From: a virus
Taxonomy: Duplodnaviria; Heunggongvirae; Uroviricota; Caudoviricetes
Virus record (IMG/VR): IMGVR_UViG_2695420380_000007
Direction: 5' to 3' (one strand)
DNA: 25,520 nt
Shown here piece after piece: positions 26 through 25,520 of the stretch. The notes beneath the pieces were generated by a model. The model had not been told where the DNA came from, made no database searches, and saw only the letters and a program-made list of their open reading frames with translations. The translations under genes were made by a program, and so were the position numbers. Each line of letters begins with the position of its first letter. Position 1 is the stretch's first letter.

Positions 26-1028
26 CAAGGCTGGTAACGCCGTGCAAAAAAATGGCGATACGTTGTCCGGTGGACTTACTTTTGAAAACGACTCAATCCT
101 TGCCTGGATTCGAAATACTGACTGGGCAAAGATTGGGTTTAAAAATAATTCGGATGCAGACACCGATTCCTACATGTGGTTTGAAACAGGCAACAACGGC
201 AATGAATATTTCAAATGGAGACACCGCATCATTGGCACCCGGCCTAAAGACCTGATGAATCTTAAATGGAATGCTTTGTCTGTTCTTGTTGAAGCCCTTT
301 TCAGCAGTGAAGTGAAAATATCGACAGTCAATGCACTGAGGATATTTAATTCATCTTTTGGTGCCATTTTTCGTCGTTCTGAAGAATGCCTGCATATCAT
401 CCCTACACGAGAGAATGAAGGGGAAAATGGTAATATAGGGCCACTACGCCCCTTTACGCTTAATCTCAGAACTGGCCGGATAAGCATGGGGCATGGTCTT
501 GATGTTACAGGGGATATATTTGCAAACCGTTTTGCAATTAACAGTAGTACCGGCATGTGGATTCATATGCGTGACCAGAATGTTATTTTGGGACGTAATG
601 CGGTATCCACTGATGGTGCTCAGGCTTTGCTCCGTCAGGACCATGCCGACCGCAAATTTATGATTGGCGGTCTGGGAAATAAGCAATTTGGCATCTACAT
701 GATTAATAACTCAAGGACAGCCAATGGCACCGATGGTCAGGCGTACATGGATAATAACGGGAACTGGCTTTGCGGCTCGCAAGTTATTCCCGGCAACTAT
801 GGCAATTTTGATTCCAGATATGTGAAAGATGTTCGACTTGGTTCACAGCAATATTATGGAGTGAACAACTGGCAAACATGGAATTTTCAGTGCCCGTCAG
901 GCTATGTACTGACGGGGATTAACGTACAGGATACCGGAAAAAACTCTGCCGATAATATTGCAGGCGTTCATTACAGGCCAGTGCAAAAGTATATAAATGG
1001 CACTTGGTATAATGTGGCGAGTATTTAA
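1..1028 (+). CDS. Alternate tail-fibre C-terminal (receptor-binding) cassette, promoterless in this orientation; reading frame open to window start
   Basis: ORF 42-1028 (GTG at 42, frame open back to nt 3). N-terminal residues [11 protein letters not shown] match the H segment [12 protein letters not shown]; C-terminus [11 protein letters not shown] parallels [12 protein letters not shown]. Opposite strand to H. Confidence 0.7.
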
Positions 1029-1029
1029 T

Positions 1030-1557
1030 ATGATGCACTTAAAGAACATAAAAGCAGGTAATGCTAAAACAGTGGAGCAGTATGAGTTAACAAAGAAGCA
1101 CGGAGTCATCTGGCTTTACTCTGAGGACGGAAAAAACTGGTATGAGGAAGTGAAGAACTTTCAGCCAGACACAATAAAGATTGTTTACGATGCAAATAAT
1201 ATTATTGTCGCCATCACCAAAGATGCCTCCACGCTTAACCCTGAAGGTTATAGCGTCGTTGAGGTTCCTGATATTACAGCTAATCGTCGTGCTGATGATT
1301 CCGGTAAGTGGATGTTTAAGGACGGAGCTGTGGTTAAACGGATTTATACGGCTGACGAACAGCAACAACAGGCCGAATCACAAAAGGCCGCATTGCTTTC
1401 CGAAGCTGAATCAGTCATCCAGCCGCTGGAACGCGCTGTCAGGCTGAATATGGCGACGGACGAGGAACGCACACGACTGGAAGCATGGGAACGCTACAGT
1501 GTTCTGGTCAGCCGTGTGGATACGGCAAAGCCAGAATGGCCACAAAAGCCTGAGTAA
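1030..1557 (+). CDS. Tail-fibre assembly protein, alternate copy (G')
   Basis: ATGATG at 1030-1035 two nt after the cassette stop. [11 protein letters not shown]...[14 protein letters not shown]...[12 protein letters not shown] closely parallels the minus-strand G protein. Confidence 0.8.
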
Positions 1558-1562
1558 AAATT

Positions 1563-1582
1563 AAGGCCCGATATCGGGCCTT
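1563..1582. terminator. Bidirectional stem-loop between convergent tail-fibre assembly genes
   Basis: Perfect palindrome aaggcccgatatcgggcctt, flanked by aaaaatt on one side and gtttcatt on the other; sits between the stops at 1557 (plus) and 1586 (minus). Confidence 0.6.
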
Positions 1583-1585
1583 GTT

Positions 1586-2256
1586 TCATTCTGGTTGTTC
1601 GGGAAACGTTACTGGCAGGCTGGAGGTGTCTGTGGATTCGACCTTCTGCGCATAGAGCATCCACTCGGTTAATTTTTGTTTATTCTCGTCGGAAATAATG
1701 CCCAGCCGTAGCTGTGAGTCCCATAGCTGGGTTTTATCCCTGACGAGCTGTAGCAGGCTTTGCTTTTCATTTTCCGCTTGTTGCCTCTGCTCTTCCCCGG
1801 TATAAGTTCGCTTTATCACTACGCCATCTTTGAACATCCATTTACCTGAAATATCAGCCCGGCGATTTGCTGTAATATCAGGAACCTCAACGANNNNNNN
1901 NNNNNNNNNNNNNNNNNNNNNNNNNNNNNNNNNNNNNNNNNNNNNNNNNNNNNNNNNNNNNNNNNNNNNNNNNNNNNNNNNCCTGAAATATCAGCCCGGC
2001 GATTTGCTGTAATATCAGGAACCTCAACGACGCTTGCGCCTTCCGGATTAATTGCTGAAACATCCTTTTCAATACAAATAATAACGCCGTTGTGGTCATA
2101 GACCATTTTCAACGTATCAGGCTGAAAGTTCTTTTGTTCCTCATACCAGTTTTTCCCATCCTCTGTATAAAGCCATTTGATGTTAAATTGTTTCGTTAGC
2201 TGGTATTGCTCTTTTGTTTCAGGATTACCAGCAGAAATGTTTTTTAAGTGCATCAT
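1586..2256 (-). CDS. G: Tail-fibre assembly protein G (intact gene split by an assembly-gap artefact)
   Basis: ATG at 2254-2256 three nt after the H stop. The ORF track splits it (1819-2256 and 1586-1837) only because of N-run 1894-1981 plus a 49-bp duplicated flank; removing 137 nt restores one 177-codon frame. Confidence 0.8.
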
Positions 2257-2258
2257 CG

Positions 2259-4229
2259 TTAAATACTCCCCGCGTTATACCACGTCCCATTAATGCAATA
2301 CTGAATTGGCCTTGCCTGAGTTGTATCAATTAGTTCATCTCTGTTTGAGTTAACGGAACCGGTAACAACATAACCTGACCTGTCAGACCATCCGGGACCA
2401 TTCCATGTCTGAACAGATAACAGACCACCAAGGCGAATACCTGTAATAAACCTTGAGTTACATTCTGCCTGCGTATATGCACCAACATCTCCCGCAGAGG
2501 GTTTGCGGGTTGTGGTGTAAAACTCTGACCAGTCAGCTTCAAAGCCATAACCATCACGCGCTGAACGATAAAAAATACCGCCGTTCCTGTAATTCACGCG
2601 GAACTGTACAGCAGGGCAGCTCCCCGTATTCATATTGAAGTGGAGGATTAATGTCGATGCGCCACCAATGTTTGCGTTATAGACCCCGCTATTCCAGTTC
2701 CAGCCAACAGCTTTATCATTTCCGACAGTGCTTCCTGTTTGCCCTAAAGCAAATGCAGGTTGTTGATTTTTCGTGTTGTAGTCTCGTCGCCAGCCAGGAG
2801 CGTAAGCATCACCATGATTAATATAAGTGAATTGAGCGTTAGTAATTCCGCCACCGCTGGACGTGCTCGGCGTGGTAACGCGTATGGTCATTGCGCCGCG
2901 AGTGCCAATAACTTCCACCACAGCACCTGCAAGACAAATATTTCCGCAACCTGTATCTGTAATGACCTTATTATTTGCATAAGCCCATGAGCCTTTGCAC
3001 ATCCAGTAAGGATGGTTAAATGCTCCCTGACTCTCCAGCCACGAAATAAATTGCGCGGTTGTCCAGACCTGACTATCGCCACCAATATTCAGCCATGAGC
3101 TATATGCGCGGCAGGCACCAATATTTTTGGTGAAGGTATCTTTCCCCGGAATATCTGCGCCGTTCTGGTTTTTCTGTAATGCGCCAGAAGCCTGATTTAC
3201 CGTTTCCTGTAAACCGAGGTATTCGATAACGGCGGCAACGGTCGATTTCGCAAGAATATCCCGCCCGACTTTTGTCAGGGTTGCCAGGCTGGCGACATCA
3301 TTCCCCGTAAAATACGGAAACCTGTCTGCCGCAGTAGCAAGCCCCGCCAGCGCCGTCAGAGTGGCATCTTTCGGTTGCTTACCCGCAAGCGCGTTAGTCA
3401 TGGTGGTCGCAAAATTCGGGTCGTTGCCCAGCGCCGCCGCCAGCTCGTTCAGTGTGTTCAGTGCATCAGGCGAAGAGTCTACAAGTGCGGCAATCGCAGC
3501 CATAACGAAAGCCGTGCTTGCGATTTGGGTATTATTCGTTCCCTGTCGCGCAGTTGGTGTTGTTGGCGTTCCGGTCAGTGCCGGGCTGTTTAATGGGGCT
3601 TTCTTGTTCGTTTCATCCATTACTGCCTTAACGGCTTTTGGTGTCGCTGCCAGCGTTTCAGACGTGCTGTTGGTGGCGTTGCTGAGCTGGACAAGGCCTT
3701 TTGCGGTCAGCGAGGCGTCCGGGTGACGTCGTGACTGTTCATGCTCTTTCAGTTTGTCATCCACGTAATTCACTGTGGCCATCACCATGGTGTTATCCAC
3801 GGTAAGCGCCACAGTGGCAGTGCTGGATACGGTCAGAATGGTGCGAAATGTTTGTGCACGTCCGGATCCTTCGGCAACGGTTGGCTTGTAACTTTCGGCA
3901 GTATTGCCTACCGCGATCAAATCGCCGTGCTCATCAAACACACCAATTTCCCGGATCCAGAATCCGCCCGTTTCAGGAGGAATAACCAGCTCCGCAATAA
4001 TGTGGTTCTGATGTGTTGCGTCCAGGGTGACGCGATTAACGGTATGTCGCCACACCTCATGCACAAGACGGGTCTGCTTACTGTCTGGCGTGGGTAAAGT
4101 ACCGCCGCCGTCACCCACGGCCATATGTGTCAGGCGGACAGGTTTCCCATCTGGCGCGGTTGCCTGCGCTAATTTTTTTGCACCCGTATCGGTGATAATG
4201 GTTTTAAATTTTCGTGTTGTGGTACTCAT
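2259..4229 (-). CDS. H: Tail fibre protein H (constant N-terminal part plus the currently expressed variable C-terminal domain)
   Basis: 656-aa ORF, ATG at 4227-4229; position between I and G; Ala/Thr-rich repetitive middle; C-terminus shared with the alternate cassette. Confidence 0.85.
3196..3220. repeat. Right inverted repeat of tail-fibre inversion switch, inside H coding sequence
   Basis: tttaccgtttcctgtaaaccgaggt is the reverse complement of 1-25; encodes the LGLQETVN junction between constant and variable H parts. Confidence 0.75.
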
Positions 4230-16503: not shown

Positions 16504-16743
16504 CTATTTACTCTTCTCGGCCCTCAAAATCATACGAGAACCATCATCCAGCTCCCAATTAATTTCACCGCCTTCTGCCATGACTAGATGCCAAACGAGT
16601 TGAGCGGCCTCGTTGGTTACATCGCGACCGCGATCATTTCCTACGCGGCGTTTTGTTCCGTCTCCTAAGTCACGCATTTTTGCCAATACGATGGTTTTTG
16701 ATAGCGGTGAAAAACCAAGCTGTAGTCGTGCTGAATTACTCAC
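16504..16743 (-). CDS. Hypothetical protein (79 aa)
   Basis: GTG start preceded by AGGGGG with 6-nt spacing; overlaps the stop of the upstream 174-aa gene (GTGA), suggesting translational coupling. Confidence 0.5.
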   Translation of the reverse strand: MSNSARLQLGFSPLSKTIVLAKMRDLGDGTKRRVGNDRGRDVTNEAAQLVWHLVMAEGGEINWELDDGSRMILRAEKSK

Positions 16744-17264
16744 TGGCTGCCCCCTTTGTACTGTGTTAACTCTTCCTGCTCCTGCATCATGCGATTGACC
16801 TGAACGCGTGTGCGTCGAACGGCAAAATTAAATTGAAACATGAGCCGGAACATTTCTGATGCTTCCGTGTGAGCATCACGGATAGGTGACAGGCGGTACA
16901 GTTCTGCCTCCGTAGCTTGTTGAATCAATGACAGATCAAATTGAAGTGCGGGTCTGGTACATTTTGCACATCTGGCAGCAAGCTCCGGTATTAGTCTCTT
17001 AACGAAGGTGTTTTGCACCGCTTTGTTGATTTGTGTCTGCATCCAAATCGCAAATTTCAGCGAACGCATAAGTTTGATAGCCTCGGGCAGCGGCAGATAG
17101 ATCATGCTGGTAGATTTGGGTGGTTGGTGAACCATCTTCACGGATACGCGATTTCGCAGCGTTCGGAAAATCGTGTTCCCAACAACAGCTTCTACGGATA
17201 CAGGACAGGGAGCCAGACCAGCCCGCAGTGCTTCTTTCATTAGCATGTATTCGTATTTTTTCAT
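16740..17264 (-). CDS. Hypothetical protein (174 aa)
   Basis: ATG 17262-17264 preceded by GAGGAA; 60 nt downstream of parR; no family recognised from the sequence. Confidence 0.55.
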   Translation of the reverse strand: MKKYEYMLMKEALRAGLAPCPVSVEAVVGNTIFRTLRNRVSVKMVHQPPKSTSMIYLPLPEAIKLMRSLKFAIWMQTQINKAVQNTFVKRLIPELAARCAKCTRPALQFDLSLIQQATEAELYRLSPIRDAHTEASEMFRLMFQFNFAVRRTRVQVNRMMQEQEELTQYKGGSQ

Positions 17265-17324
17265 CGTGTTTTCCTCGTGCGGGGCGACAGTGCACCCCGA
17301 TAAAATTAAAAGCCGTCAAATTCG

Positions 17325-17636
17325 TCATTCAGGAAATAATGCCCGGATATTCCCTGCTATCTGACTGGTTATCTGTGCGGTTGGTACTGGCTGTGGCACG
17401 GGGCGTTCTGTCCTGGTTTGTGTCACCGATAACGCCTCATCGTCAGCCCATGCAGCCAGTCGGTAAGCCTCTGCTGGATTCATTTTCAGAAGTGCCAGCC
17501 CGGCCAGAAAAGCCACGCGTTGGCCGCTTTTGCGGGCTTCTGGTGTAAGGCTGCCCAGCCAGGCGCATGCTTCGCTTTCGTTCTTGACGGCCGCAGGCTT
17601 CAGATAGAAACTTATCCGTCTGGTTGGTGTCGTCAT
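17325..17636 (-). CDS. parR: ParR-like centromere-binding protein (ribbon-helix-helix partition adaptor)
   Basis: ATG 17634-17636 preceded by AAGGAG, 4 nt after the parM stop; 103 aa; RRISFYLKP...EARKSGQRVAFLAGLAL resembles R1 ParR/StbB (from memory). The longer track ORF 17325-17771 overlaps parM. Confidence 0.65.
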   Translation of the reverse strand: MTTPTRRISFYLKPAAVKNESEACAWLGSLTPEARKSGQRVAFLAGLALLKMNPAEAYRLAAWADDEALSVTQTRTERPVPQPVPTAQITSQIAGNIRALFPE

Positions 17637-17640
17637 TGGT

Positions 17641-18600
17641 TTACTCCTTGTCCATTGCGTACAGCCCATTAACCAGAGCAAACTGTGGCACCCCGTCCGC
17701 GATGAAAGTCGCATTAACTCCGCAGGCTTCGCGGATAGCGGGTGCCACAATCTCCGCCCCTCCACCGACAACCATCACCCGCCCGTAACCCGAAAAACCC
17801 GCCAGCGCGCGGATCACGCGTTGTTTCAGTGTTTCTTCCTTTTCACGAATAACCGCCATCAGGCTGGCGTAATGCGCGTCATTGTGGATGTGCTGGCGCA
17901 GCCAGGCTTCATCATGGCGATGTTCGATAATGGTATTGGCGATGTGGTGACTGGTGCGCATACCGTTAGTGGCCATCACCGACAGTACGGCATCGGCCAT
18001 CAGAGAAACGCCTACGTGTGGATCGCAAAACACCTGGCTGATACCTGCCAGTTGCCCCTGAACCTTTGCCACATCCAGCGTGGTTCCGCCCAAATCCACA
18101 ATCAGCAGGGATTCAAACGGACTCATGTCAGCCAGTGCCTTAAAGCCAGCCGGAATGGATTCAGGCATAACCCGCACGTTACGGATAGTGAATGCTTCGC
18201 CGTTCTGGTACTCCACCGGGCGCATAACGTTCGCTTTTTTGCGGTTGATGTTGGCCATGTCCGGCTGTGCGTTTGTGTCGAAATACTCGCTCAGTGGCAG
18301 GGTGACAACCACATCCACCTCCTGTGGCGTGATGCCTGATTTGACCAGCGCGTGATGAATGGCAATGACATTTACATCGCTGTACTGGTATTGCGTGTCG
18401 GTTGTCTGGACAAAGCGATCGCTGACCGGATCAAAACCATAGCGCACGCCATCAAGCATGTAGTTCGCGGGCTGCATGCCACCGAACGGCGCAGACCATT
18501 CCGACTTGAAGCTGTTCGGGCTGATGGCGTTGCGGCGTTCGCCGTTCTCAGTCCATGCCAGCTTGATGTTGGTGGAGCCGTCGTCGATACAAATTTTCAT
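17641..18600 (-). CDS. parM: ParM/StbA actin-like segregation ATPase
   Basis: 319 aa, ATG 18598-18600 preceded by AAGGA; shared motifs with R1 ParM recalled from memory: IDDGSTNIKL, ISPNSFK, YSDVNV, NRKKAN, VMPESIPAG, LLIVDLGGTTLD, VMVVGGGAE. Confidence 0.85.
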   Translation of the reverse strand: MKICIDDGSTNIKLAWTENGERRNAISPNSFKSEWSAPFGGMQPANYMLDGVRYGFDPVSDRFVQTTDTQYQYSDVNVIAIHHALVKSGITPQEVDVVVTLPLSEYFDTNAQPDMANINRKKANVMRPVEYQNGEAFTIRNVRVMPESIPAGFKALADMSPFESLLIVDLGGTTLDVAKVQGQLAGISQVFCDPHVGVSLMADAVLSVMATNGMRTSHHIANTIIEHRHDEAWLRQHIHNDAHYASLMAVIREKEETLKQRVIRALAGFSGYGRVMVVGGGAEIVAPAIREACGVNATFIADGVPQFALVNGLYAMDKE

Positions 18601-18630: not shown

Positions 18631-18743
18631 GTTTACGGGATTCTGAAATCCCGTTTTTGCCTGTTTTGTGCGCGCTTCATATATCGCTGCGCGTTTTTTG
18701 CTCATTTACGGGATTCGTGAGTCCCGTTTCTGTCTGTTTTTTG
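18631..18743. promoter_or_regulatory. Pair of about 40-bp direct repeats, each with a hairpin-forming palindrome, flanking a candidate parM promoter
   Basis: tttacgggattctgaaatcccgttt (18632-18657) and tttacgggattcgtgagtcccgttt (18705-18729), each followed by a T-rich CTGTTTT tract. Between them, on the minus strand, candidate -35 TGAGCA and -10 TATATG with a 16-nt spacer. Confidence 0.5.
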
Positions 18744-21558
18744 TTTCCACTGGTCAGGCCACCCCGCAGCAGGTCTGCTTTGCGGCGGGCGCGTTCAGTG
18801 GTTTCACTGATTCTCTGTGCGTGCTCTGCGTCGCGGATGGCGCGCAGCATGTCAGAAAGCACGGTAACGGGTGTTTTCATGGTGTTCTGGTCCTGCTGAA
18901 GTGTGGATGCCAGGCGTGCGGCGGCTTCAGGGTCTGATGCCCCCAGCTGTGTCAGATAGCTGGCGACCGGGTTATGGCGGATCTCCGTGCTGCTTACGCC
19001 ATGATTACGGCTCAGGCGCTGCCAGAGCTGCGTGATTCGGCTGTCCGGGCGGGTATCCGGTTTGCGTACAATTTCAAATCCCTGCGGTGCAATGATGCTG
19101 CCGTCAACGTACAGACTGCCGCCCCGTAACAGGTGCTGCATCTGTTGTTCACCGATATGCAGGCCGAGAGATTCAGCAGACTCCCGCCATTCTTTAGCGA
19201 GTAATTCGTGGTTATCAGGCAAAGGCCGCTGCTGTTTGCGGCTCTGTGTCCAGCTCTGCATTTCATCACTGCTGTTTTTTGCCTGTTTGTCACGAAGCGA
19301 ACGCATCAGCGCCCGGCGTTCGTGCCGTTTCAGTGAGCGCATCCATTCATCCACATCAACGCCGTCAGGGAGCTGCGGCCACGGTGCTGGCCGTTCTTCC
19401 GGCTGTTCTGTCCCGTTGTTGTCCGTTTCCTGTACACGGGGACAGTTATTGCCACGAGTCCAAGGGGCGGCAGGGCCGCCCTGAAGGTCAAAACCATTTT
19501 CGCGGGCGCTGTCTTCCGCTTCCGGTTTGCGTCTTACCAGCTTCCAGTTATCCGGATGCGTGCACACACGGNNNNNNNNNNNNNNNNNNNNNNNNNNNNN
19601 NNNNNNNNNNNNNNNNNNNNNNNNNNNNNNNNNNNNNNNNNNNNNAAATCTGTACGCTCTGTTCGCCGTAATCGTTCAGCTCATCGGCGAGGTCGTAGGC
19701 GGTGCGAATCAGGTAGTCTTTGCGTGGAACAAGTACGCCGCCCTGTTTCTCTATGTAGGTGNNNNNNNNNNNNNNNNNNNNNNNNNNNNNNNNNNNNNNN
19801 NNNNNNNNNNNNNNNNNNNNNNNNNNNNNNNNNNNNNNNNNNNNNNNNNNNNNNNNNNNNNNNNNNNNNNNNNNNNNNNNNNNNNNNNNNNNNNNNNNNN
19901 NNNNNNNNNNNNNNNNNNNNNNNNNNNNNNNNNNNNNNNNNNNNNNNNNNNNNNNNNNNNNNNNNNNNNNNNNNNNNNNNNNNNNNNNNNNNNNNNNNNN
20001 NNNNNNNNNNNNNNNNNNNNNNNNNNNNNNNNTCGATGCCATCCACGGCGCGGCTGTCCAGGTTTTTCCCGATGTAGGTGGCGATGTAGCTGGTTGGCGT
20101 GCCTTTTGAGCCGTCTACATACTCCGCCTTAAAGCGCGGAGTTATGTCATCGCCCAGCTCGTGACGATCTTCCTGAATGGCAATATCGCGGGTGTGGGAC
20201 ACAATGGTGTCGATTTCTTCCGGATGAGCAAAGACCATCATATGCCAGTGCACGGTGCCGTCATGGTGAGGCTCCGCCGTGCGGATGCCATACCAGCGCA
20301 GGCCGTCGCGGTTCAGTTTTTTGCGGACCGTCGCAAAAAACGTGTTAACCAGGTAATCGCTGGAGTCGCGCATTGTGGCCCCGTTCCATTTGGGATTCGG
20401 ATGACCGTTCTCCGTTGTGGCGTGGTATTTTGACGGGCAGGTGACAGTCAGAAACACCGCTTTGTCGCCACGGGCTTCGGCCAGAAGTTCCAGCCCCTTC
20501 ATGGTGGCCATCATTTCTGCCTTACGGTGAACCGGGTTACTTACTCCCGCGTAATACACCGTCTCGAGATCAATCGTGAACCCGTCTTCATTTTCCAGCA
20601 TGAAACTTTTCAGGAAATCGCGTGTTTTCTCGCGCTGTGCGCGAAACTCGCTTAACGCGTCCTGGCTCAGATAGGGCGATGTTTTTCTGGAAACCAGACA
20701 GGCGGCGCGAAGTTGTTCTTCTCTCCACTCGCAACGTAACAGCCACAGTTTGCGTTTCCACCATTCCGCACAGGTCAGGCGAAGGATTGCGCCCGGCAGC
20801 AGTTCTGTGTCCGGTTCGTGCCTCCGGTCTTTGTCTGTTGTCAGTGCGTCATAATGCGGAGGCATGGCGTGTAAGTGTAACGCCATGCGGGCCAGCATCT
20901 GATACGCCTTCAGCGTTACATCCATGGTCAGCTCGCCATCAGTCGCGCCAAAACCATCGCAGAGTTTTTCGAAGGTGCTGCTGAACATCGCCGCCGTCAT
21001 GGTGGCCAGCGTCTGTATCTGGTGTTTGTTGAGTTGCGGCAGGTAAAGCAAATCGTCCAGGCGTTCACGTCCGGCAAGGGAGCGATAACCCGGTGTCAGC
21101 CAGTGTCCGTCAGTGCGATCCAGACGTTCGAATATTTTGCGCAGGGTTCCGCGTGCATAGCGTTCCGCCTGCCAGCTCTTTTTGCCTTTCCGGCGATCGG
21201 CTTCCTGTTTTTTGCGCAGGAAGGAGAGGTGGCGAATAAGCGGATCGCGCAGATAGGACGGCAGCAGGCGCAGCGAGGCCATGGCTTCATCCACCGCGCC
21301 GCGTGCCTGTTTTCTGGCGTCTCCTGCCAGTGTGATGGTTTTGTCCTGTTTTTCCTGTGCGTCCAGGCTTTTATTAATCAGGTTGCCCAGTGGCGTGGCG
21401 GAGAACGCCGCATCAGCCATTTCCTGGCGGCGCTCGTTCTCTGCCCGGTGGGCATCCAGCCAGGAGGAAAGCGCGGATTCAGGAGCGGGGATCCCCGTTC
21501 CTTCACGCCCCACTGCGTGGCGCGGTTGTTGCCAGTCCCTGATGTACTCTGCCGTCAT
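18677..21558 (-). CDS. A: Replication initiation endonuclease A (rolling-circle HUH type), interrupted by N-runs 19572-19645 and 19762-20032
   Basis: N-terminal ORF 19681-21558 (ATG 21556-21558) has the HUH motif HWHMMVF. Segment 19646-19761 encodes a clean peptide that joins the N-terminal frame if the 271-N run is removed. Assignment of ORF 18677-19567 as the C-terminus is inferred. Confidence 0.75.
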
Positions 21559-21564
21559 AGTGAT

Positions 21565-21930
21565 TTACTTCGTCATGCCATTCAGGGTGTCGCGGCAGAC
21601 TGTAGCCAGCCGCTGAATTTCCAGCACGGTGTCTTCTGTGTCGGCATGGCGATGTGTGATGCGGATGCTGTCGGCAATCACATCGACGATTGCAGAGGAT
21701 GGGCGCTGGTAAATGCCAATAACGGACGGGGTGCCACCTTCAATGCGGTAAAGCCTGTAATTTCCCTCGTGGCTGTCAATCATGTAGCGACCATCAATAA
21801 CAATCTTTCCGTCAGCGAGCTGCGGTACAGGCAGGGATTTCAGGTACATGTCATAACGATCACGCACGCGAGCGGCAAGATCACGCTCTGTGTTGAGCAG
21901 GTATTCAAGAAAGTCGTTGGCGAGAATCAT
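21565..21930 (-). CDS. Hypothetical early protein (121 aa) immediately upstream of A
   Basis: ATG 21928-21930 preceded by AAGAGGA; ends 7 nt before the A start. Confidence 0.55.
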   Translation of the reverse strand: MILANDFLEYLLNTERDLAARVRDRYDMYLKSLPVPQLADGKIVIDGRYMIDSHEGNYRLYRIEGGTPSVIGIYQRPSSAIVDVIADSIRITHRHADTEDTVLEIQRLATVCRDTLNGMTK

Positions 21931-22071
21931 TGCGGCAATCCTCTTGTTACAGATGTGCGAAGGCCTCCCGCCGCAAGGTGCAGGAAAGGCCCGGAACAGG
22001 AATTAATGGAGTTTGTTTTGCTGCCGGATGAGCTGCTGAAGCCCGACGTGGTTTCCGGCAGTTGGAGGTGC

Positions 22072-22317
22072 TCATGCTCTGATTTCCCTCAGTAGCTGGT
22101 TGAACATCTGGGTTAGTGGGTTGCTACACCCAAACGGCATCAGGTTTACCTGATAAGAAAAGCGACCGCCTGTTTTGCGCTCTTTTCTTGTGACTAAACC
22201 GCTGCGCCAGAGACGGCGTAGCTCCGCATTAATGGTTGTGGTTGGTGTATTCAGTGCTGCGGCGATTTCTCCACTGCTACAACCCGGATTGGCAGCGATG
22301 TAGTCCAGAATGGTCAT
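22072..22317 (-). CDS. Small winged-helix-like DNA-binding protein (81 aa)
   Basis: ATG 22315-22317 overlaps the upstream stop (ATGA); SSGEIAAALNTPTTTINAELRRLWRSGLVTRKERK looks like a helix-turn-helix plus wing. Confidence 0.5.
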   Translation of the reverse strand: MTILDYIAANPGCSSGEIAAALNTPTTTINAELRRLWRSGLVTRKERKTGGRFSYQVNLMPFGCSNPLTQMFNQLLREIRA

Positions 22318-22517
22318 CTGCGTGACTCCTGTACCTGTCTGATAAGATTCACCTGCACCACGTTGGTGGCGCAGAAGTAAGTGCCGTCAGTGAGATAGAT
22401 ATGATGTGCATCCTTTTCTGAACGGTGTTTGTCGATTGTGGTAATCAGGCGTTCGTCAACTTCGTATTCACGTCCTCTGGAGGTGAAACGAACGACAGGA
22501 AAATGCTTAATTGCCAT
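22314..22517 (-). CDS. Hypothetical protein (67 aa), translationally coupled to the downstream wHTH gene
   Basis: Internal ATG 22515-22517 preceded by AAGGAGG; the 84-aa track ORF starts further upstream without an RBS. Confidence 0.5.
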   Translation of the reverse strand: MAIKHFPVVRFTSRGREYEVDERLITTIDKHRSEKDAHHIYLTDGTYFCATNVVQVNLIRQVQESRR

Positions 22518-22603
22518 TACGCCTCCTTGGCGTGTGCGAATACCTCCGCGAATGCGGATTGTTTTCACATTTTCTTATTTAACCTAGGGTCTTATTTGCG
22601 CGG

Positions 22604-22720
22604 TTATTCTTCAGTGAAAAAGCGTTCAATCTTTTTTACTGAATTAATAATTCGCATAATCCCAATGGCGCAGACCACCGAAATAATCANNNNNNNNNNN
22701 NNNNNNNNNNNNNAAGCCAT
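22604..22720 (-). CDS. Possible small hydrophobic protein; interrupted by N-run 22690-22713
   Basis: Hydrophobic C-terminal peptide IISVVCAIGIMRIINSV; start ambiguous. Confidence 0.2.
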   Translation of the reverse strand: MAXXXXXXXXXIISVVCAIGIMRIINSVKKIERFFTEE

Positions 22721-22792
22721 GAAATAAATATACTCATGCGATATTTCCCAGCTTATACGGTTCAATATGTTCCCCGCATTCTGCGGCACAGA

Positions 22793-22999
22793 TCAGCTCG
22801 GAAAGTTCGTTAAGTGCATCCAGATCATCAGCGTAAAAAGNNNNNNNNNNNNNNNGTAAAAAGCCACGTCATACAGACTTCGGATTGCTCTGGTCAATGA
22901 GTCACGGGCCGCACGTTCAGCATGAGCGCCTGATGCACTTAAGCGAAAATAAAAACGCTCAAGTGCTTTGTTAATGAGAGTTTTATATTCTTTGCCCAT
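22793..22999 (-). CDS. Hypothetical early protein; interrupted by N-run 22841-22855
   Basis: ATG 22997-22999 (GTG at 23002 also possible) preceded by AAGGG; the N-run is flanked by an 8-nt duplication (gtaaaaag). Confidence 0.35.
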   Translation of the reverse strand: MGKEYKTLINKALERFYFRLSASGAHAERAARDSLTRAIRSLYDVAFYXXXXXLFTLMIWMHLTNFPS

Positions 23000-23010
23000 C
23001 ACAACGCCCT

Positions 23011-23298
23011 TTAATCTGCTTTCTGTATTTCAGCTTCTGAATCCATACAAATAATTTCGATATAGGGTTCATCGCCATTAACCTGGCGTGCCTTTTCATC
23101 TTCGCTGATGATTTCTCGTACGGTCTGGTACGGAAGTTCCACAAGCAGTCGCGTGCCGTTCAGATAAACGTAAGTGGCTTCGTCGGCTCCGTTTTTACCC
23201 GCCGGAGTCACTCCGTCAATAGCGGATGCACGTAATAACAGTTCACCGCGAAAATCAATAAAACGGATAAATACACCTTGTGCATTGTCTTTGGTCAT
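23011..23298 (-). CDS. Hypothetical early protein (95 aa)
   Basis: ATG 23296-23298 (internal to track ORF 23011-23412) preceded by AGGTG; avoids a 100-nt overlap with the upstream gene. Confidence 0.5.
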   Translation of the reverse strand: MTKDNAQGVFIRFIDFRGELLLRASAIDGVTPAGKNGADEATYVYLNGTRLLVELPYQTVREIISEDEKARQVNGDEPYIEIICMDSEAEIQKAD

Positions 23299-23308
23299 AA
23301 AGCACCTG

Positions 23309-23647
23309 TTATAAATCAGCCTGTTTAATAAAACTTTGCCCGCGAAGCAGACGATCAACCGTGCGAAGTGCTTCGTATAATGTGAAATCCTGCCCGAACT
23401 GATTGTCGCCACAGCTCAGTGCAAAAATGCGGTTTCCGGTAAACGGATTGCGTGGGCATTTGTGGATCACGATTCCAGCTTTCTCAATCAGCCAGGCGTG
23501 CTCGCCGATTTGTTTTACTGGGTAGCCATCCGGCGTTGCGTGTGTATCACTCAGGCTGTAGCGGATGTTGCTGCGTGATGCACTGGTAGTGAAACGGTTA
23601 GCGTGGCGTTCTGTTCCGGTACAAAAATTACGGCGTTGCTTCAGCAT
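23309..23647 (-). CDS. Hypothetical early protein (112 aa)
   Basis: ATG 23645-23647 preceded by GAGGTG with 7-nt spacing; second gene of the early operon. Confidence 0.55.
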   Translation of the reverse strand: MLKQRRNFCTGTERHANRFTTSASRSNIRYSLSDTHATPDGYPVKQIGEHAWLIEKAGIVIHKCPRNPFTGNRIFALSCGDNQFGQDFTLYEALRTVDRLLRGQSFIKQADL

Positions 23648-23661
23648 AAAATGACACCTCG

Positions 23662-23940
23662 TTATTTTGTCATCTGCACGTATTTCTCTGCGTTTCTGAT
23701 GGTTTTCAGGAAAATTGCGAAGAGATTTACTTTGCGTTTTGTGTTTCTTCCTTCTTGAGTAACGGGAATTACCGATCTATCAGCCTGCCTTCTTACAGCG
23801 AGAATGCTTTGATTTGTGCGTTTCGCATAATCCTCTAGGCTTTCTTCAAGTACCGGTAGCCCATGTTCATTACGGTATGGGTAGAACGCCGCCAAACGCT
23901 CAAAATCCGCTTGTTCGTATGTGTTAAGGACTTTTGCCAT
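23662..23940 (-). CDS. Cox-like early regulator (putative excisionase / repressor of the lysogenic promoter), divergent from C
   Basis: 92 aa, ATG 23938-23940; first gene of the early leftward operon, 95 bp from and divergent to the repressor gene; helix-turn-helix-like LEDYAKRTNQSILAVRRQADRSVIP. Called by position and size, not sequence identity. Confidence 0.4.
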   Translation of the reverse strand: MAKVLNTYEQADFERLAAFYPYRNEHGLPVLEESLEDYAKRTNQSILAVRRQADRSVIPVTQEGRNTKRKVNLFAIFLKTIRNAEKYVQMTK

Positions 23941-24035
23941 GGTGTGATAACCTATTCAATCTGGTGCTATTTGTGGCTCTTTGTAGCGTCAAGTGGTACT
24001 CAACTGATAACCAATATAGTATTCAGGTGCACACC
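23941..24035. promoter_or_regulatory. Divergent early/lysogenic promoter-operator region (Pe/Pc equivalent)
   Basis: 95-bp gap between divergent starts; tandem 10-bp repeats ctatttgtgg/ctctttgtag (23967-23986); TGATAACC direct repeat at 23945-23952 and 24006-24013; candidate -10 TATAGT at 24015-24020 close to the C start. Confidence 0.5.
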
Positions 24036-24347
24036 ATGTCAATAGAGATATCAAAGAAGCTAAAAGCAATTCGAGAATCTGAGGGGCTTAGTCAGGCAAA
24101 GTTCGCGGATTCAATAGGTATTGCGGTTGGTACGGTTAAGCAATACGAGACTGGTATTCGAGGTGTGGGAACGGAGGTTTTACTGAAAATCACAATGCAC
24201 CCGGAATTTAAAAAATACACTACGTGGTTGATGAGTAACGAAACAAATGAGGCTGCTGGGCAGATCAGTCCTTCTCTCTCCCCTGATGGGCCAGAAAACA
24301 CATCGTCTTCTCAAAAATCCCGCAAGACTGGCACACAGCCCGGCTAA
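24036..24347 (+). CDS. C: Immunity repressor, P2 C-type
   Basis: ATG 24036-24038; 103 aa; LSQAKFADSIGIAVGTVKQYETG (HTH) and PEFKKYTTWLMSNE...AAGQISPSLS resemble P2 C (from memory). Confidence 0.8.
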   Translation: MSIEISKKLKAIRESEGLSQAKFADSIGIAVGTVKQYETGIRGVGTEVLLKITMHPEFKKYTTWLMSNETNEAAGQISPSLSPDGPENTSSSQKSRKTGTQPG

Positions 24348-24396
24348 TCATGGAACGCTGGGGGCATGGTGGTCTTGTAACGCTGGGGCTTCACGA

Positions 24397-25374
24397 ATGA
24401 GCATAAAATCAATTCCGGGAGGGTATCTTCTTGACATGCGTCCTGAGGGGCGTAAAGGCAAACGCATTCGCAAAAAATTTAAAACGAAATCGGATGCAGT
24501 TTTATATGAGCGGTGGGTGCTGGCGCAACAGCATAACAATGAGTGGAAAGGAAACTCCATTGATCGCCGTCCGCTGTCAGTGCTTATTGACTTGTGGTGG
24601 AAATACCACGGCCAGCTAATGAAGTCAGGGCATAACACGCGCCTTAAATTGCTGCGCTTGAGTGAGGCAATGGATGACCCGTGCGTGCATAAACTTAATA
24701 CAACGATGCTCACCGAGCTACGTGTGTCCAGGATAGAGCAGGGGATACAGCCCAGCACCATAAATCGAGAGATTGGGGCGTTAAGCGCGATGTTTACCGC
24801 ACTCATCTCATCCGGCCATTTTCTTAACGATAACCCCGTTCAAGGCCTTAAAGGAATGAAGGTTAACGAGCGTGAAATGGGATATCTGAGTAAGTCTGAA
24901 TGTGTTCAGTTGCTGGATGCACTGGCTGAAAATCCCGATGAACGGCTGGCCGTCGAAATCCTTCTGTCGACCGGGGCGCGATGGGGCGAGGTAGCGGCAC
25001 TGGAGCAGCGCCGTGTTCTTCATTGTCGAATCACTTTTTCAAAAACGAAGAACAGCAAAAACCGTACCGTTCCTATTTCTGAAAGCCTGTTTGAAAAGAT
25101 CAAAAAACGGGGCGGGAAACTGGTGTTTCCGACGCTGGATTATTCATTGGTTCGCGATGTCATCAAAACGGTCGCACCTGATGTTCCTGACGGCCAGGCT
25201 GTTCATGCGCTGCGCCACACCTTCGCCAGTCATTTCATGATGAACGGCGGCAATATTCTGACGCTCCAGAAAATTCTGGGGCACGCAAAGATTCAGACAA
25301 CGATGATTTATGCCCATCTTGCGCCGGATTACTTGCAGGATGCGGTGAGGTTTAATCCCTTGGGAGGAATGTAA
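24397..25374 (+). CDS. int: Tyrosine integrase (P2 Int-like)
   Basis: ATG 24397-24399 (internal to track ORF 24247-25374); GRKGKRIRKKF, LSTGARWGE, HALRHTFASHFMMNGGNILTLQKILGH and TMIYAH resemble P2 Int including the C-terminal Tyr region (from memory). Confidence 0.9.
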   Translation: MSIKSIPGGYLLDMRPEGRKGKRIRKKFKTKSDAVLYERWVLAQQHNNEWKGNSIDRRPLSVLIDLWWKYHGQLMKSGHNTRLKLLRLSEAMDDPCVHKLNTTMLTELRVSRIEQGIQPSTINREIGALSAMFTALISSGHFLNDNPVQGLKGMKVNEREMGYLSKSECVQLLDALAENPDERLAVEILLSTGARWGEVAALEQRRVLHCRITFSKTKNSKNRTVPISESLFEKIKKRGGKLVFPTLDYSLVRDVIKTVAPDVPDGQAVHALRHTFASHFMMNGGNILTLQKILGHAKIQTTMIYAHLAPDYLQDAVRFNPLGGM

Positions 25375-25376
25375 CT

Positions 25377-25437
25377 ATGGAAATAAAAAAACCTACAAAA
25401 AAAGAGTTATATGACTATTTACTATCGAAATATATAG
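25377..25437 (+). CDS. 5' end of an AT-rich ORF beginning 2 nt after the int stop; truncated by N-run 25438-25512
   Basis: ATG 25377 (MEIKKPTKKELYDYLLSKYI); composition is far more AT-rich than the prophage genes; could be a flanking or cargo gene, or chance. Confidence 0.2.
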
Positions 25438-25520
25438 NNNNNNNNNNNNNNNNNNNNNNNNNNNNNNNNNNNNNNNNNNNNNNNNNNNNNNNNNNNNNNN
25501 NNNNNNNNNNNNCATAAAGA

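What the first reader, a model, noticed from the sequence alone, without database searches (positions are those of the whole stretch)
21565..23647. Early operon between cox and A is a string of small ORFs with no obvious gpB-sized gene
Six to seven small genes (61-121 aa) lie between the Cox-like gene and A, including an ATGA-coupled pair of a 67-aa protein and an 81-aa winged-helix-like protein. I could not place any of them as the roughly 166-aa P2 B protein. Early-operon small genes in P2-like phages often include host-takeover or anti-defence factors, so these merit structure-based annotation.
Basis: inference. Interest (0 to 1): 0.45.

Follow-up and report, generated by a model that had tools for sequence, protein, structure and literature searches.

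The report
Ordinary P88-type prophage early operon
This is the normal early (lytic) operon of a P88-type (Xuanwuvirus) P2-like prophage that sits in about a quarter of sequenced E. coli genomes; it lacks the P2 B gene because B occurs only in P2's closest relatives, and what its seven small conserved genes do is still unknown.

Summary
The string of small genes on the minus strand between the Cox-like gene and gene A is real, and there is no gpB. The region is 99.9% identical to many E. coli chromosomes and 88-97% identical to Xuanwuvirus (P88-like) phages with the same gene order.

The real set is seven genes plus one deletion scar:
- DUF4761, 112 aa
- an orphan, 95 aa
- DUF4754, 80 aa
- a 37-aa membrane peptide
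- an orphan, 67 aa
- a minimal winged-helix protein, 81 aa
- a 121-aa protein, then A (940 aa)

All seven show dN/dS below 1. P2 B is found in only 76 of 50,697 phage records, all at least 85% identical, so its absence is expected. 186, Senquatrovirus and Novemvirus lack it too.

The 121-aa protein is a distant DUF5405 member, like P2 Orf81/Orf83 and 186 Orf83, and sits directly before A as they do. DUF4761 also follows cox in two other genera. The other four are genus-specific.

Structure prediction and fold searches on two proteins gave no functional assignment. The finding is ordinary and already catalogued. A host-takeover or anti-defence role is untested, not excluded.

The parts
24013..24042 (-). 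Pe-like sigma-70 promoter (TTGACA, 18 nt spacer, TATATT) for the early operon. It overlaps the 5' end of the divergent C-repressor gene.
   Evidence: Consensus scan, 11 of 12 matches. The position matches P2 Pe and 186 pR as annotated. Function is inferred, not shown.
23662..23940 (-). Cox-like first gene of the operon, 92 aa (probable excisionase and Pc repressor).
   Evidence: phrog_11533 E 4e-53; phrog_575 'Cox-like' E 0.008. Its HTH segment aligns with the P2 Cox HTH (blastp E 2e-4 in a 9-sequence set). No Pfam or PDB hit. The assignment rests mainly on position and size.
23309..23647 (-). DUF4761 protein, 112 aa. Basic, disordered N-terminus followed by a five-strand sheet and a C-terminal helix.
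23011..23298 (-). 95-aa orphan (phrog_3800).
   Evidence: PHROG E 3e-60. Only 22 representatives at E<=1e-3 among 1.84 billion proteins. Found only in the 14 Xuanwuvirus-type phage records. dN/dS 0.10-0.35. No PDB relative.
22734..22999 (-). DUF4754 protein, 80 aa in relatives. It is interrupted in the window by the N run at 22841-22855.
   Evidence: PF15946, 104.7 bits on the truncated ORF. phrog_2549 E 3e-38 on the full length. Amino-acid sequence is 100% identical in four related phages, with 2-6 synonymous and 0 non-synonymous differences. Frame restored from L001.
22604..22737 (-). 37-aa single-pass membrane peptide, ATGA-coupled to DUF4754. It is interrupted by the N run at 22690-22713.
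   Evidence: RefSeq CDS in L001 and 'membrane protein' in P88. Hydrophobic residues 2-21 are followed by a basic tail (read from the sequence). dN/dS 0.09-0.66 on few sites. No family hit.
22518..22603 (.). 86-nt intergenic gap, the only sizeable gap in the operon. Relatives carry an extra 136-aa gene here.
   Evidence: Sequence. L006 and L007 have a 136-aa CDS at this position. No minus-strand intrinsic terminator was found.
22314..22517 (-). 67-aa orphan (phrog_3459) with a strong RBS (AAGGAGG), ATGA-coupled to the winged-helix gene.
   Evidence: PHROG E 3e-45. 63 homologues, nearly all Escherichia, none a genuine fusion (two weak partial hits carry head-gene Pfam domains). Found only in Xuanwuvirus-type phages. 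dN/dS as low as 0.04. No PDB relative.
22072..22317 (-). 81-aa minimal winged-helix-turn-helix protein, annotated as MarR family.
   Evidence: MarR_2 35.8 bits (cut-off 27) and HTH_24 34.1 bits. phrog_1687 E 1.5e-30. dN/dS 0.23-0.38.
21927..22075 (-). Deletion scar at a variable cargo slot: the last 39 codons of an ash-family regulator gene, plus a 42-aa ORF left at the old ead/Ea22 start.
   Evidence: PGAP pseudogene in L001. About 795 bp are missing relative to P884B11 (L005 2147-2941). Relatives carry ead/Ea22, ash-like, DNA-binding, lipoprotein and derepression genes here. Phage 520873 has the same short form.
21565..21930 (-). 121-aa protein directly upstream of A. It is a distant DUF5405 member with a 40-residue N-terminal extension.
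   Evidence: phrog_3237 E 3e-55. hhalign against P2 Orf81/Orf83 and 186 Orf83 gives probability 85.7%, E 5e-6. 7 of 9 family members hit PF17399, best E 8.7e-6. The family HMM ranks exactly the three DUF5405 proteins next. The BFVD fold search returns a DUF5405 protein at probability 1.0.
18677..21558 (-). Gene A, the rolling-circle replication endonuclease. It is 940 aa in relatives and is interrupted by two N runs in the window.
   Evidence: Phage_GPA 438.8 bits. 35% identical to 186 A and 31% to P2 A over about 600 aa. phrog_91 'nicking at origin of replication'.

Best explanation
The region is the standard early lytic operon of a Xuanwuvirus (P88-type) member of the P2-like family Peduoviridae, integrated in E. 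coli.

How it most likely works (inferred unless marked):
- It is transcribed on the minus strand from a Pe-like promoter at 24042-24013, face to face with the C repressor gene.
- It is silent in the lysogen and switched on after derepression.
- It is read as one polycistronic message. Genes are 6-14 nt apart or overlap by ATGA, and there is one 86-nt gap (shown by the sequence).
- The message runs through the Cox-like protein and seven small proteins into A, the rolling-circle initiator.

The small proteins are conserved accessory early proteins, not a disguised gpB. One is a minimal winged-helix DNA binder. One, immediately before A, is a diverged DUF5405 protein like P2 Orf81/Orf83 and 186 Orf83. 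DUF4761 is shared with two other P2-family genera. A 37-aa membrane peptide and three soluble orphans (95, 80 and 67 aa) are genus-specific.

gpB is missing because it is a gene of P2's own genus only. As reported for 186, which also lacks B, lagging-strand helicase loading is most likely left to the host DnaC. That last step is inferred from established knowledge and was not tested here.
For: Identity: 99.9% to E. coli chromosomes, with matches in 1,414 of 5,426 complete genomes. 88-97% to Xuanwuvirus phages over 21400-23614.

Synteny: the same backbone occurs in P88, P884B11, phiSM, PV468777 and 520873.

Real genes: dN/dS is below 1 for all seven, with strong PHROG or Pfam matches for six of them.

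Promoter: 11 of 12 consensus matches, in the position of P2 Pe and 186 pR.

B is genus-restricted: 76 of 50,697 phage records, all at least 85% identical. It is absent from 186, SEN5 and phiT5282H. Peduoviridae hallmark genes are structural only (PMC13100340), and P2's replication and immunity genes are not shared by P2-like Burkholderia phages (PMC3091744).

DUF5405 link for the 121-aa protein.

DUF4761 directly after cox in two further genera.
Against: Nothing contradicts the identification.

The functional part is thin. No transcript, terminator or operator was demonstrated. The Cox assignment is weak (E 0.008 to the PHROG Cox family, no Pfam hit). Reliance on host DnaC comes from what is known of 186 (my own knowledge; the paper could not be retrieved) and not from any test on this phage. 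The window protein itself scores below the Pfam DUF5405 cut-off (13.9 against 21.6 bits). Five of the seven proteins still have no biochemical hint at all.
Confidence: 0.85

Rival explanations
1. One of the genus-specific small proteins (95 aa, DUF4754, 67 aa or DUF4761) is a non-homologous functional replacement of gpB. It would bind host DnaB and load it for lagging-strand synthesis.
For: Phage helicase loaders are often replaced by unrelated proteins (title and abstract of PMC11087808). DUF4754 and the 67-aa protein are under very strong purifying selection (0 non-synonymous against 2-6 synonymous differences; dN/dS 0.04). DUF4754 gave a weak blastp hit to P2 B residues 115-155 (E 0.008 in a 30-sequence database).
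Against: The DUF4754-B similarity is not reproduced by the Pfam or PHROG HMMs. 186 lacks B and, by established knowledge, uses host DnaC, so no replacement is needed. Senquatrovirus and Novemvirus lack B and also lack the Xuanwuvirus orphans. No fold or sequence link to any loader was found.
Confidence: 0.07
2. Some of the small proteins are host-takeover or anti-defence factors, analogous in role to 186 Fil and Dhr. They would be expressed early to inhibit a host process or an immune system.
Confidence: 0.25
3. Several of the small ORFs are not genes, only chance open frames in a leader before A.
Against: All seven retained ORFs have dN/dS below 1 across five phages. Stop/start junctions are tight or overlap by ATGA. 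Six have PHROG or Pfam families at E between 3e-38 and 1e-68.
Confidence: 0.02

Closest known systems
Early operon of Escherichia phage P88 and other Xuanwuvirus (P884B11, 520873, Citrobacter phiSM)
   Same: Same order of homologous genes: DUF4761, the 95-aa protein, DUF4754, the 37-aa peptide, the 67-aa protein, the winged helix, the 121-aa protein, and a 940-aa A. Protein identity is 69-100% and DNA identity 88-97%.
   Different: The C/Cox immunity module (above about 23614) matches none of the 14 phage records. This copy has lost the cargo between the winged-helix gene and the 121-aa gene (ead/Ea22, ash-like regulator, derepression protein and others), leaving a scar. Phage 520873 has the same short form.
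Bacteriophage P2 early operon (cox, orf78, B, orf80-83, A)
   Same: Divergent C / Pe-cox layout. A Cox-type first gene. A DUF5405 gene immediately before A. An A protein of the Phage_GPA family.
   Different: No homologues of orf78, B, orf80 (DUF2732) or orf82 (DksA-like zinc finger). Instead it carries DUF4761, DUF4754, three orphans and a winged-helix protein. A is 940 aa against 761 aa.
Coliphage 186 early operon (apl, cII, fil, dhr, orf80-84, A)
   Same: It also lacks P2 B. It has small early genes followed by a DUF5405 gene (orf83) near A. Its A is the closest characterised A (35% identity over 596 aligned positions).
   Different: No cII, fil, dhr, DUF2732, DksA-like or PAPS-reductase homologues in the window. 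186 has a CI/Apl switch and the SOS-controlled Tum.
Senquatrovirus SEN5 and Novemvirus phiT5282H early operons
   Same: cox is followed two genes later by a DUF4761-core protein (42% identity over residues 46-102). There is no gpB, and the operon ends in A.
   Different: Their DUF4761 is 68 aa without the basic N-terminal extension. It is followed by a Fil-like gene and DNA methyltransferases, none of which is present here.

Membership tests
Xuanwuvirus (P88-type) early operon, Peduoviridae | High nucleotide identity to classified Xuanwuvirus genomes across the operon | tested here: met
   96.8% to P884B11, 93.8% to P88 and 88.1% to 520873 over window 21400-23614.
Xuanwuvirus (P88-type) early operon, Peduoviridae | Conserved order of the small genes, ending in a 940-aa Phage_GPA replication endonuclease | tested here: met
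   Annotated tables of five relatives. Pairwise protein identities 69-100%. Phage_GPA 438.8 bits.
Xuanwuvirus (P88-type) early operon, Peduoviridae | Divergent repressor / Cox switch with an early promoter between them | tested here: inconclusive
   The HTH repressor gene and a promoter-like site (11 of 12) are in the right place. The Cox assignment is weak (phrog_575 E 0.008).
P2 gpB (phrog_235; DnaB-binding replication protein) | Sequence homology to P2 B | tested here: not met
   Best tblastn E-value on the window is 0.2. No window protein hits phrog_235 or its relatives. P2 B matches no Pfam family shared with them.
P2 gpB (phrog_235; DnaB-binding replication protein) | A gene of about 166 aa between cox and A | tested here: not met
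   The largest gene in the interval is 121 aa.
P2 gpB (phrog_235; DnaB-binding replication protein) | Binding to host DnaB and a requirement for lagging-strand synthesis | not testable with these tools
   Needs biochemistry or genetics. The reference is Odegrip et al. 2000, seen only in a reference list; the paper is not held in the library.
DUF5405 (PF17399; P2 Orf81/Orf83, 186 Orf83), for the 121-aa protein | Pfam score above the gathering cut-off | tested here: not met
   The window protein scores 13.9 bits against a cut-off of 21.6, E 0.074.
DUF5405 (PF17399; P2 Orf81/Orf83, 186 Orf83), for the 121-aa protein | Profile-level and fold-level similarity to bona fide members | tested here: met
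   hhalign probability 85.7%, E 5e-6 over 75 columns. 7 of 9 close homologues hit PF17399, best E 8.7e-6. The family HMM ranks P2 Orf81, P2 Orf83 and 186 Orf83 as the next three of 30. The BFVD fold search returns a DUF5405 protein at probability 1.0, E 3e-3.
DUF5405 (PF17399; P2 Orf81/Orf83, 186 Orf83), for the 121-aa protein | Position at the distal end of the early operon, next to A | tested here: met
   Its stop codon lies 6 nt before the A start codon. P2 orf83 overlaps A, and 186 orf83 is one gene away from A.
DUF4761 (PF15958) | Pfam score above the gathering cut-off over the full profile | tested here: met
   225.4 bits against 27; profile positions 1-105 of 105.
DUF4754 (PF15946) | Pfam score above the gathering cut-off | tested here: met
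   104.7 bits against 27 on the part before the N run. The full-length relative matches phrog_2549 over 1-80 of 80, E 3e-38.
MarR-family transcription regulators, for the 81-aa protein | Winged helix-turn-helix domain | tested here: met
   MarR_2 35.8 bits (cut-off 27) and HTH_24 34.1 bits (cut-off 21.9).
MarR-family transcription regulators, for the 81-aa protein | Full MarR architecture (about 140-150 aa, with N- and C-terminal dimerisation helices around the winged helix) | tested here: not met
   The protein is only 81 aa. It matches only positions 69-149 of the 162-position phrog_1687 profile. It is better called a minimal winged-helix protein. The size of canonical MarR proteins is from my own knowledge.
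186 Fil / Dhr host-takeover proteins | Sequence homology | tested here: not met
   No Phage_186_Fil hit for any window protein. blastp and family HMMs against Fil and Dhr give only E>1.
Known anti-defence proteins | Homology or fold similarity to a characterised inhibitor | tested here: inconclusive

The most novel reading that the evidence does not exclude
At least one of the genus-specific, strongly constrained small early proteins (DUF4754, the 67-aa partner of the winged helix, the 95-aa orphan, or DUF4761) has a specific host target. It could be an unrelated substitute for gpB that recruits DnaB, or an inhibitor of a host process or immune system. It would define a new family of early effectors carried by about a quarter of E. 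coli genomes.
Probability: 0.25. Interest if true: 0.45.

Novelty: already known. Interest (0 to 1): 0.15.

Why it matters
It matters little as a discovery. The locus is a near-identical copy of an operon already present and annotated in described phages (P88, P884B11, 520873) and in more than a thousand E. coli genomes, and the missing gpB is normal outside the genus Peduovirus.

The useful results are corrections and small additions:
- Two reported ORFs are masking artefacts.
- The gene before A belongs to the DUF5405 family of P2 and 186.
- DUF4761 recurs after cox in three genera of Peduoviridae.
- The operon has defined cargo slots, one of which carries a deletion scar here.

Four very common, strongly conserved prophage proteins still have no function. 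They remain reasonable but unremarkable candidates for wet-lab screens.

Tried and rejected
1. Hidden or split gpB. tblastn of P2 B gave only E>=0.2. A 120-residue hit at 23176-22856 runs in the DUF4754 frame across the 95-aa gene and is an artefact of extension. The DUF4754 hit to B residues 115-155 (E 0.008) is not backed by Pfam or PHROG HMMs. Rejected.

2. Paralogy among the small proteins. I thought the 67-aa and 95-aa proteins shared a motif. Smith-Waterman scores are no better than shuffles (z 0.5). Rejected.

3. Fusion of the 67-aa protein with the winged helix, suggested by the 246-position phrog_19053 profile. The 63 homologues are nearly all 50-90 aa and none is a fusion with the winged helix. 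Not supported.

4. Sequence search of the PDB with seven proteins. Nothing significant.

5. NCBIfam and PADLOC. Only generic winged-helix hits.

- Neither gave a functional assignment.

7. Exhaustive HMMER search with the 95-aa protein. Only 22 representatives. The hits to giant adhesins fall in MucBP, Big_9 and cadherin-like repeats and look compositional.

8. Rfam and tRNA scans of the whole window. Nothing found.

9. Intrinsic terminator in the 86-nt gap. None on the coding strand.

10. Literature. No paper in the library mentions DUF4761, DUF4754 or the RefSeq accessions. The P88 paper deals with tail fibres only.
Full report
**What is there**

On the minus strand, downstream of a divergent pair, lies a tight run of small ORFs that ends at gene A (start 21558). 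The divergent pair is a C-type HTH repressor on the plus strand, followed by the integrase, and a 92-aa Cox-like gene at 23662-23940.

The 3-kb stretch 21400-24400 is 99.5-99.9% identical to chromosomal prophages of many E. coli strains. It matches something in 1,414 of 5,426 complete genomes. From 21400 to about 23614 it is 88-97% identical to phages classified as Xuanwuvirus in the Peduoviridae: P88, P884B11, 520873 and Citrobacter phiSM. The window is therefore a P88-type P2-like prophage.

**Correcting the ORF list**

I used the 99.9% identical E. coli O26 RM8426 locus (L001) as a guide. The N runs in the window do not keep their true length. All five that can be checked are 13-40 nt longer than the homologous sequence. 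One is flanked by a duplicated 8-mer.

The sequence on both sides encodes an 80-aa DUF4754 protein (22734-22999) whose TGA overlaps the ATG of a 37-aa membrane peptide (22604-22737). The 133-aa ORF is really 95 aa (23011-23298).

The gene list, in order of transcription:
- Cox-like, 92 aa
- DUF4761, 112 aa
- 95-aa orphan
- DUF4754, 80 aa
- 37-aa membrane peptide
- an 86-nt gap
- 67-aa orphan
- winged-helix protein, 81 aa (ATGA-coupled to the 67-aa gene)
- a deletion scar
- 121-aa protein
- A, which is 940 aa in relatives

Gaps between genes are 6-14 nt or 4-nt overlaps.

**Are they genes?**

Yes. Against five related phages, every one of the seven has dN/dS below 1. DUF4754 shows 2-6 synonymous and no non-synonymous differences in four comparisons. 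The 67-aa protein reaches dN/dS 0.04. Six of the seven match a PHROG or Pfam family at E between 3e-38 and 1e-68; the 37-aa peptide matches no library family.

**No gpB, and why that is ordinary**

P2 B finds nothing in the window by tblastn (best E 0.2). No window protein hits phrog_235 or any other PHROG that B matches.

A tblastn of P2 B against 50,697 phage records finds only 76. All are at least 85% identical, and 75 are at least 95% identical. They are P2 itself, WPhi, L-413C, fiAA91-ss, pro147 and similar phages. B is thus a gene of P2's own genus.

Other P2-family early operons lack it too:
- 186 has no B homologue; its 'B' is the Ogr homologue.
- The five Xuanwuvirus records have none.
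- Senquatrovirus SEN5 and Novemvirus phiT5282H have none.

Published comparisons agree. The Peduoviridae hallmark genes are seven structural and packaging genes (PMC13100340). P2's replication, immunity and lysogeny genes are not shared by P2-like Burkholderia phages (PMC3091744).

From my own knowledge, P2 B binds DnaB and is needed for lagging-strand synthesis (Odegrip et al. 2000, seen only as a reference). Also from my own knowledge, 186, which lacks B, depends on host DnaC. The simplest inference is that P88-type phages also use the host loader.

**What the small proteins are**

1. *The 121-aa protein before A.* It is a diverged DUF5405 protein with a 40-residue N-terminal extension.
   - On its own it scores below the Pfam cut-off (13.9 against 21.6 bits).
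   - A profile of its family aligns with P2 Orf81, P2 Orf83 and 186 Orf83 at hhalign probability 85.7%, E 5e-6.
   - 7 of 9 close homologues hit PF17399, best E 8.7e-6.
   - Its HMM ranks exactly those three proteins next among 30 P2, 186 and P88 early proteins.
   - A Foldseek search of its AlphaFold model against viral structures returns a DUF5405 protein at probability 1.0.
   - It keeps the family's position at the A-proximal end of the operon.

3. *The 81-aa protein.* It is a minimal winged helix. It clears the MarR_2 and HTH_24 cut-offs but is half the length of a MarR regulator.

4. *DUF4754, the 95-aa protein, the 67-aa protein and the 37-aa peptide.* They are found only in the same 14 Xuanwuvirus-type phage records and in enterobacterial prophages. 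They have no PDB, NCBIfam or PADLOC relatives.

**Variable slots**

Relatives carry extra genes at three places:
- just after cox;
- in the 86-nt gap, where some have a 136-aa gene;
- between the winged-helix gene and the 121-aa gene, where they carry ead/Ea22-like, ash-like regulator, DNA-binding, membrane or lipoprotein and 'derepression' genes.

Here the last slot is empty. About 795 bp present in P884B11 are missing. What remains is the last 39 codons of the ash-family gene and a 42-aa ORF at the old ead start. Phage 520873 has the same short form.

**How it most likely works**

A promoter-like site with 11 of 12 consensus matches (TTGACA, 18 nt, TATATT) lies at 24042-24013 on the minus strand. 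It overlaps the start of the C gene, as P2 Pe and 186 pR do.

I infer that C represses it in the lysogen. After derepression a single message would carry the Cox-like protein, the small proteins and A, with translational coupling at the overlaps. No minus-strand terminator was detected. These steps are inferred from layout and from the P2 and 186 paradigms. None was shown here.

**Rivals**

- A non-homologous B substitute among the orphans is possible but unsupported (confidence about 0.07).
- Non-coding ORFs are excluded.

**Verdict**

The interpretation that it is unusual is not supported. The locus is an already sequenced, annotated and very common prophage operon. Novelty: already known. 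Interest: 0.15.

Noticed in passing
window 19572-19645, 19762-20032, 22690-22713, 22841-22855, 25438-25512: All five N runs that can be compared with a 99.9% identical relative are 13-40 nt longer than the sequence they replace. One is flanked by a duplicated 8-mer (GTAAAAAG). Reading frames across N runs in this window cannot be trusted. Genes A, DUF4754 and the 37-aa peptide only look disrupted.
   Followed up: yes
window 16740-18600 (- strand): Between A and the portal gene, the P2 defence hotspot described by Rousset et al. 2022, lie a ParM-like actin gene (17641-18600; StbA_N and ParM_N, E 1e-68 to 3e-82) and a 174-aa ORF with no Pfam or PHROG match (16740-17264). GC content there is lower (0.46-0.50). 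A plasmid-partition actin is an odd cargo for an integrated prophage.
   Followed up: partly
window 21927-22075: A deletion scar at a cargo slot. It holds the 3' remnant of an ash-family regulator gene and a 42-aa ORF that is ATGA-coupled to the winged-helix stop. About 795 bp present in P884B11 are missing. Relatives also carry a 'derepression protein' here, which this prophage lacks.
   Followed up: yes
window 18677-21558 (- strand): Gene A encodes 940 aa in this lineage, against 761 aa in P2 and 694 aa in 186. The C-terminal extension of about 200 residues (from about residue 745) has no Pfam domain. Its function is unknown.
   Followed up: partly
window 23614-24400: There is a mosaic boundary. 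The C repressor and Cox-like immunity module matches none of the 14 related phage records, although the rest of the operon is 88-97% identical. It is present in 87 E. coli genomes at full length.
   Followed up: partly
window 23931-24045: A 16-nt inverted repeat (88% complementary) places 'CACACCATG' at the start codons of both divergent genes, C and cox-like. A direct repeat TGATAACC(T/A)AT occurs at 23945 and at 24005, and the second copy overlaps the -10 of the Pe-like promoter. These are possible operators, but two-copy repeats can arise by chance.
   Followed up: no
window 25377-25520 and L001 6935-7973: Downstream of the integrase, before btuC in the relative, lie a 166-aa Cys-rich ORF (CPSCG...CLNCG, zinc-ribbon-like, no Pfam hit) and a 145-aa coiled-coil protein annotated as DUF1640. 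These are probably cargo at the prophage end.
   Followed up: no
window 42-4229: The tail-fibre gene (2259-4229, minus strand) and a 145-aa ORF face a plus-strand 328-aa ORF with no Pfam match and a plus-strand tail-fibre assembly gene (997-1557, Caudo_TAP). The region has low GC (0.40-0.45). The layout resembles alternative or invertible tail-fibre cassettes. No invertase gene is seen within the window.
   Followed up: no
window 23011-23298 (95-aa protein): In an exhaustive HMMER search, residues about 30-88 weakly match many repeats in giant surface adhesins (MucBP, Big_9 and cadherin-like repeats; 5-11 stretches per protein, E 4e-7 to 3e-4). This is probably compositional, but it could hint at a small beta-sandwich-like fold.
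   Followed up: partly
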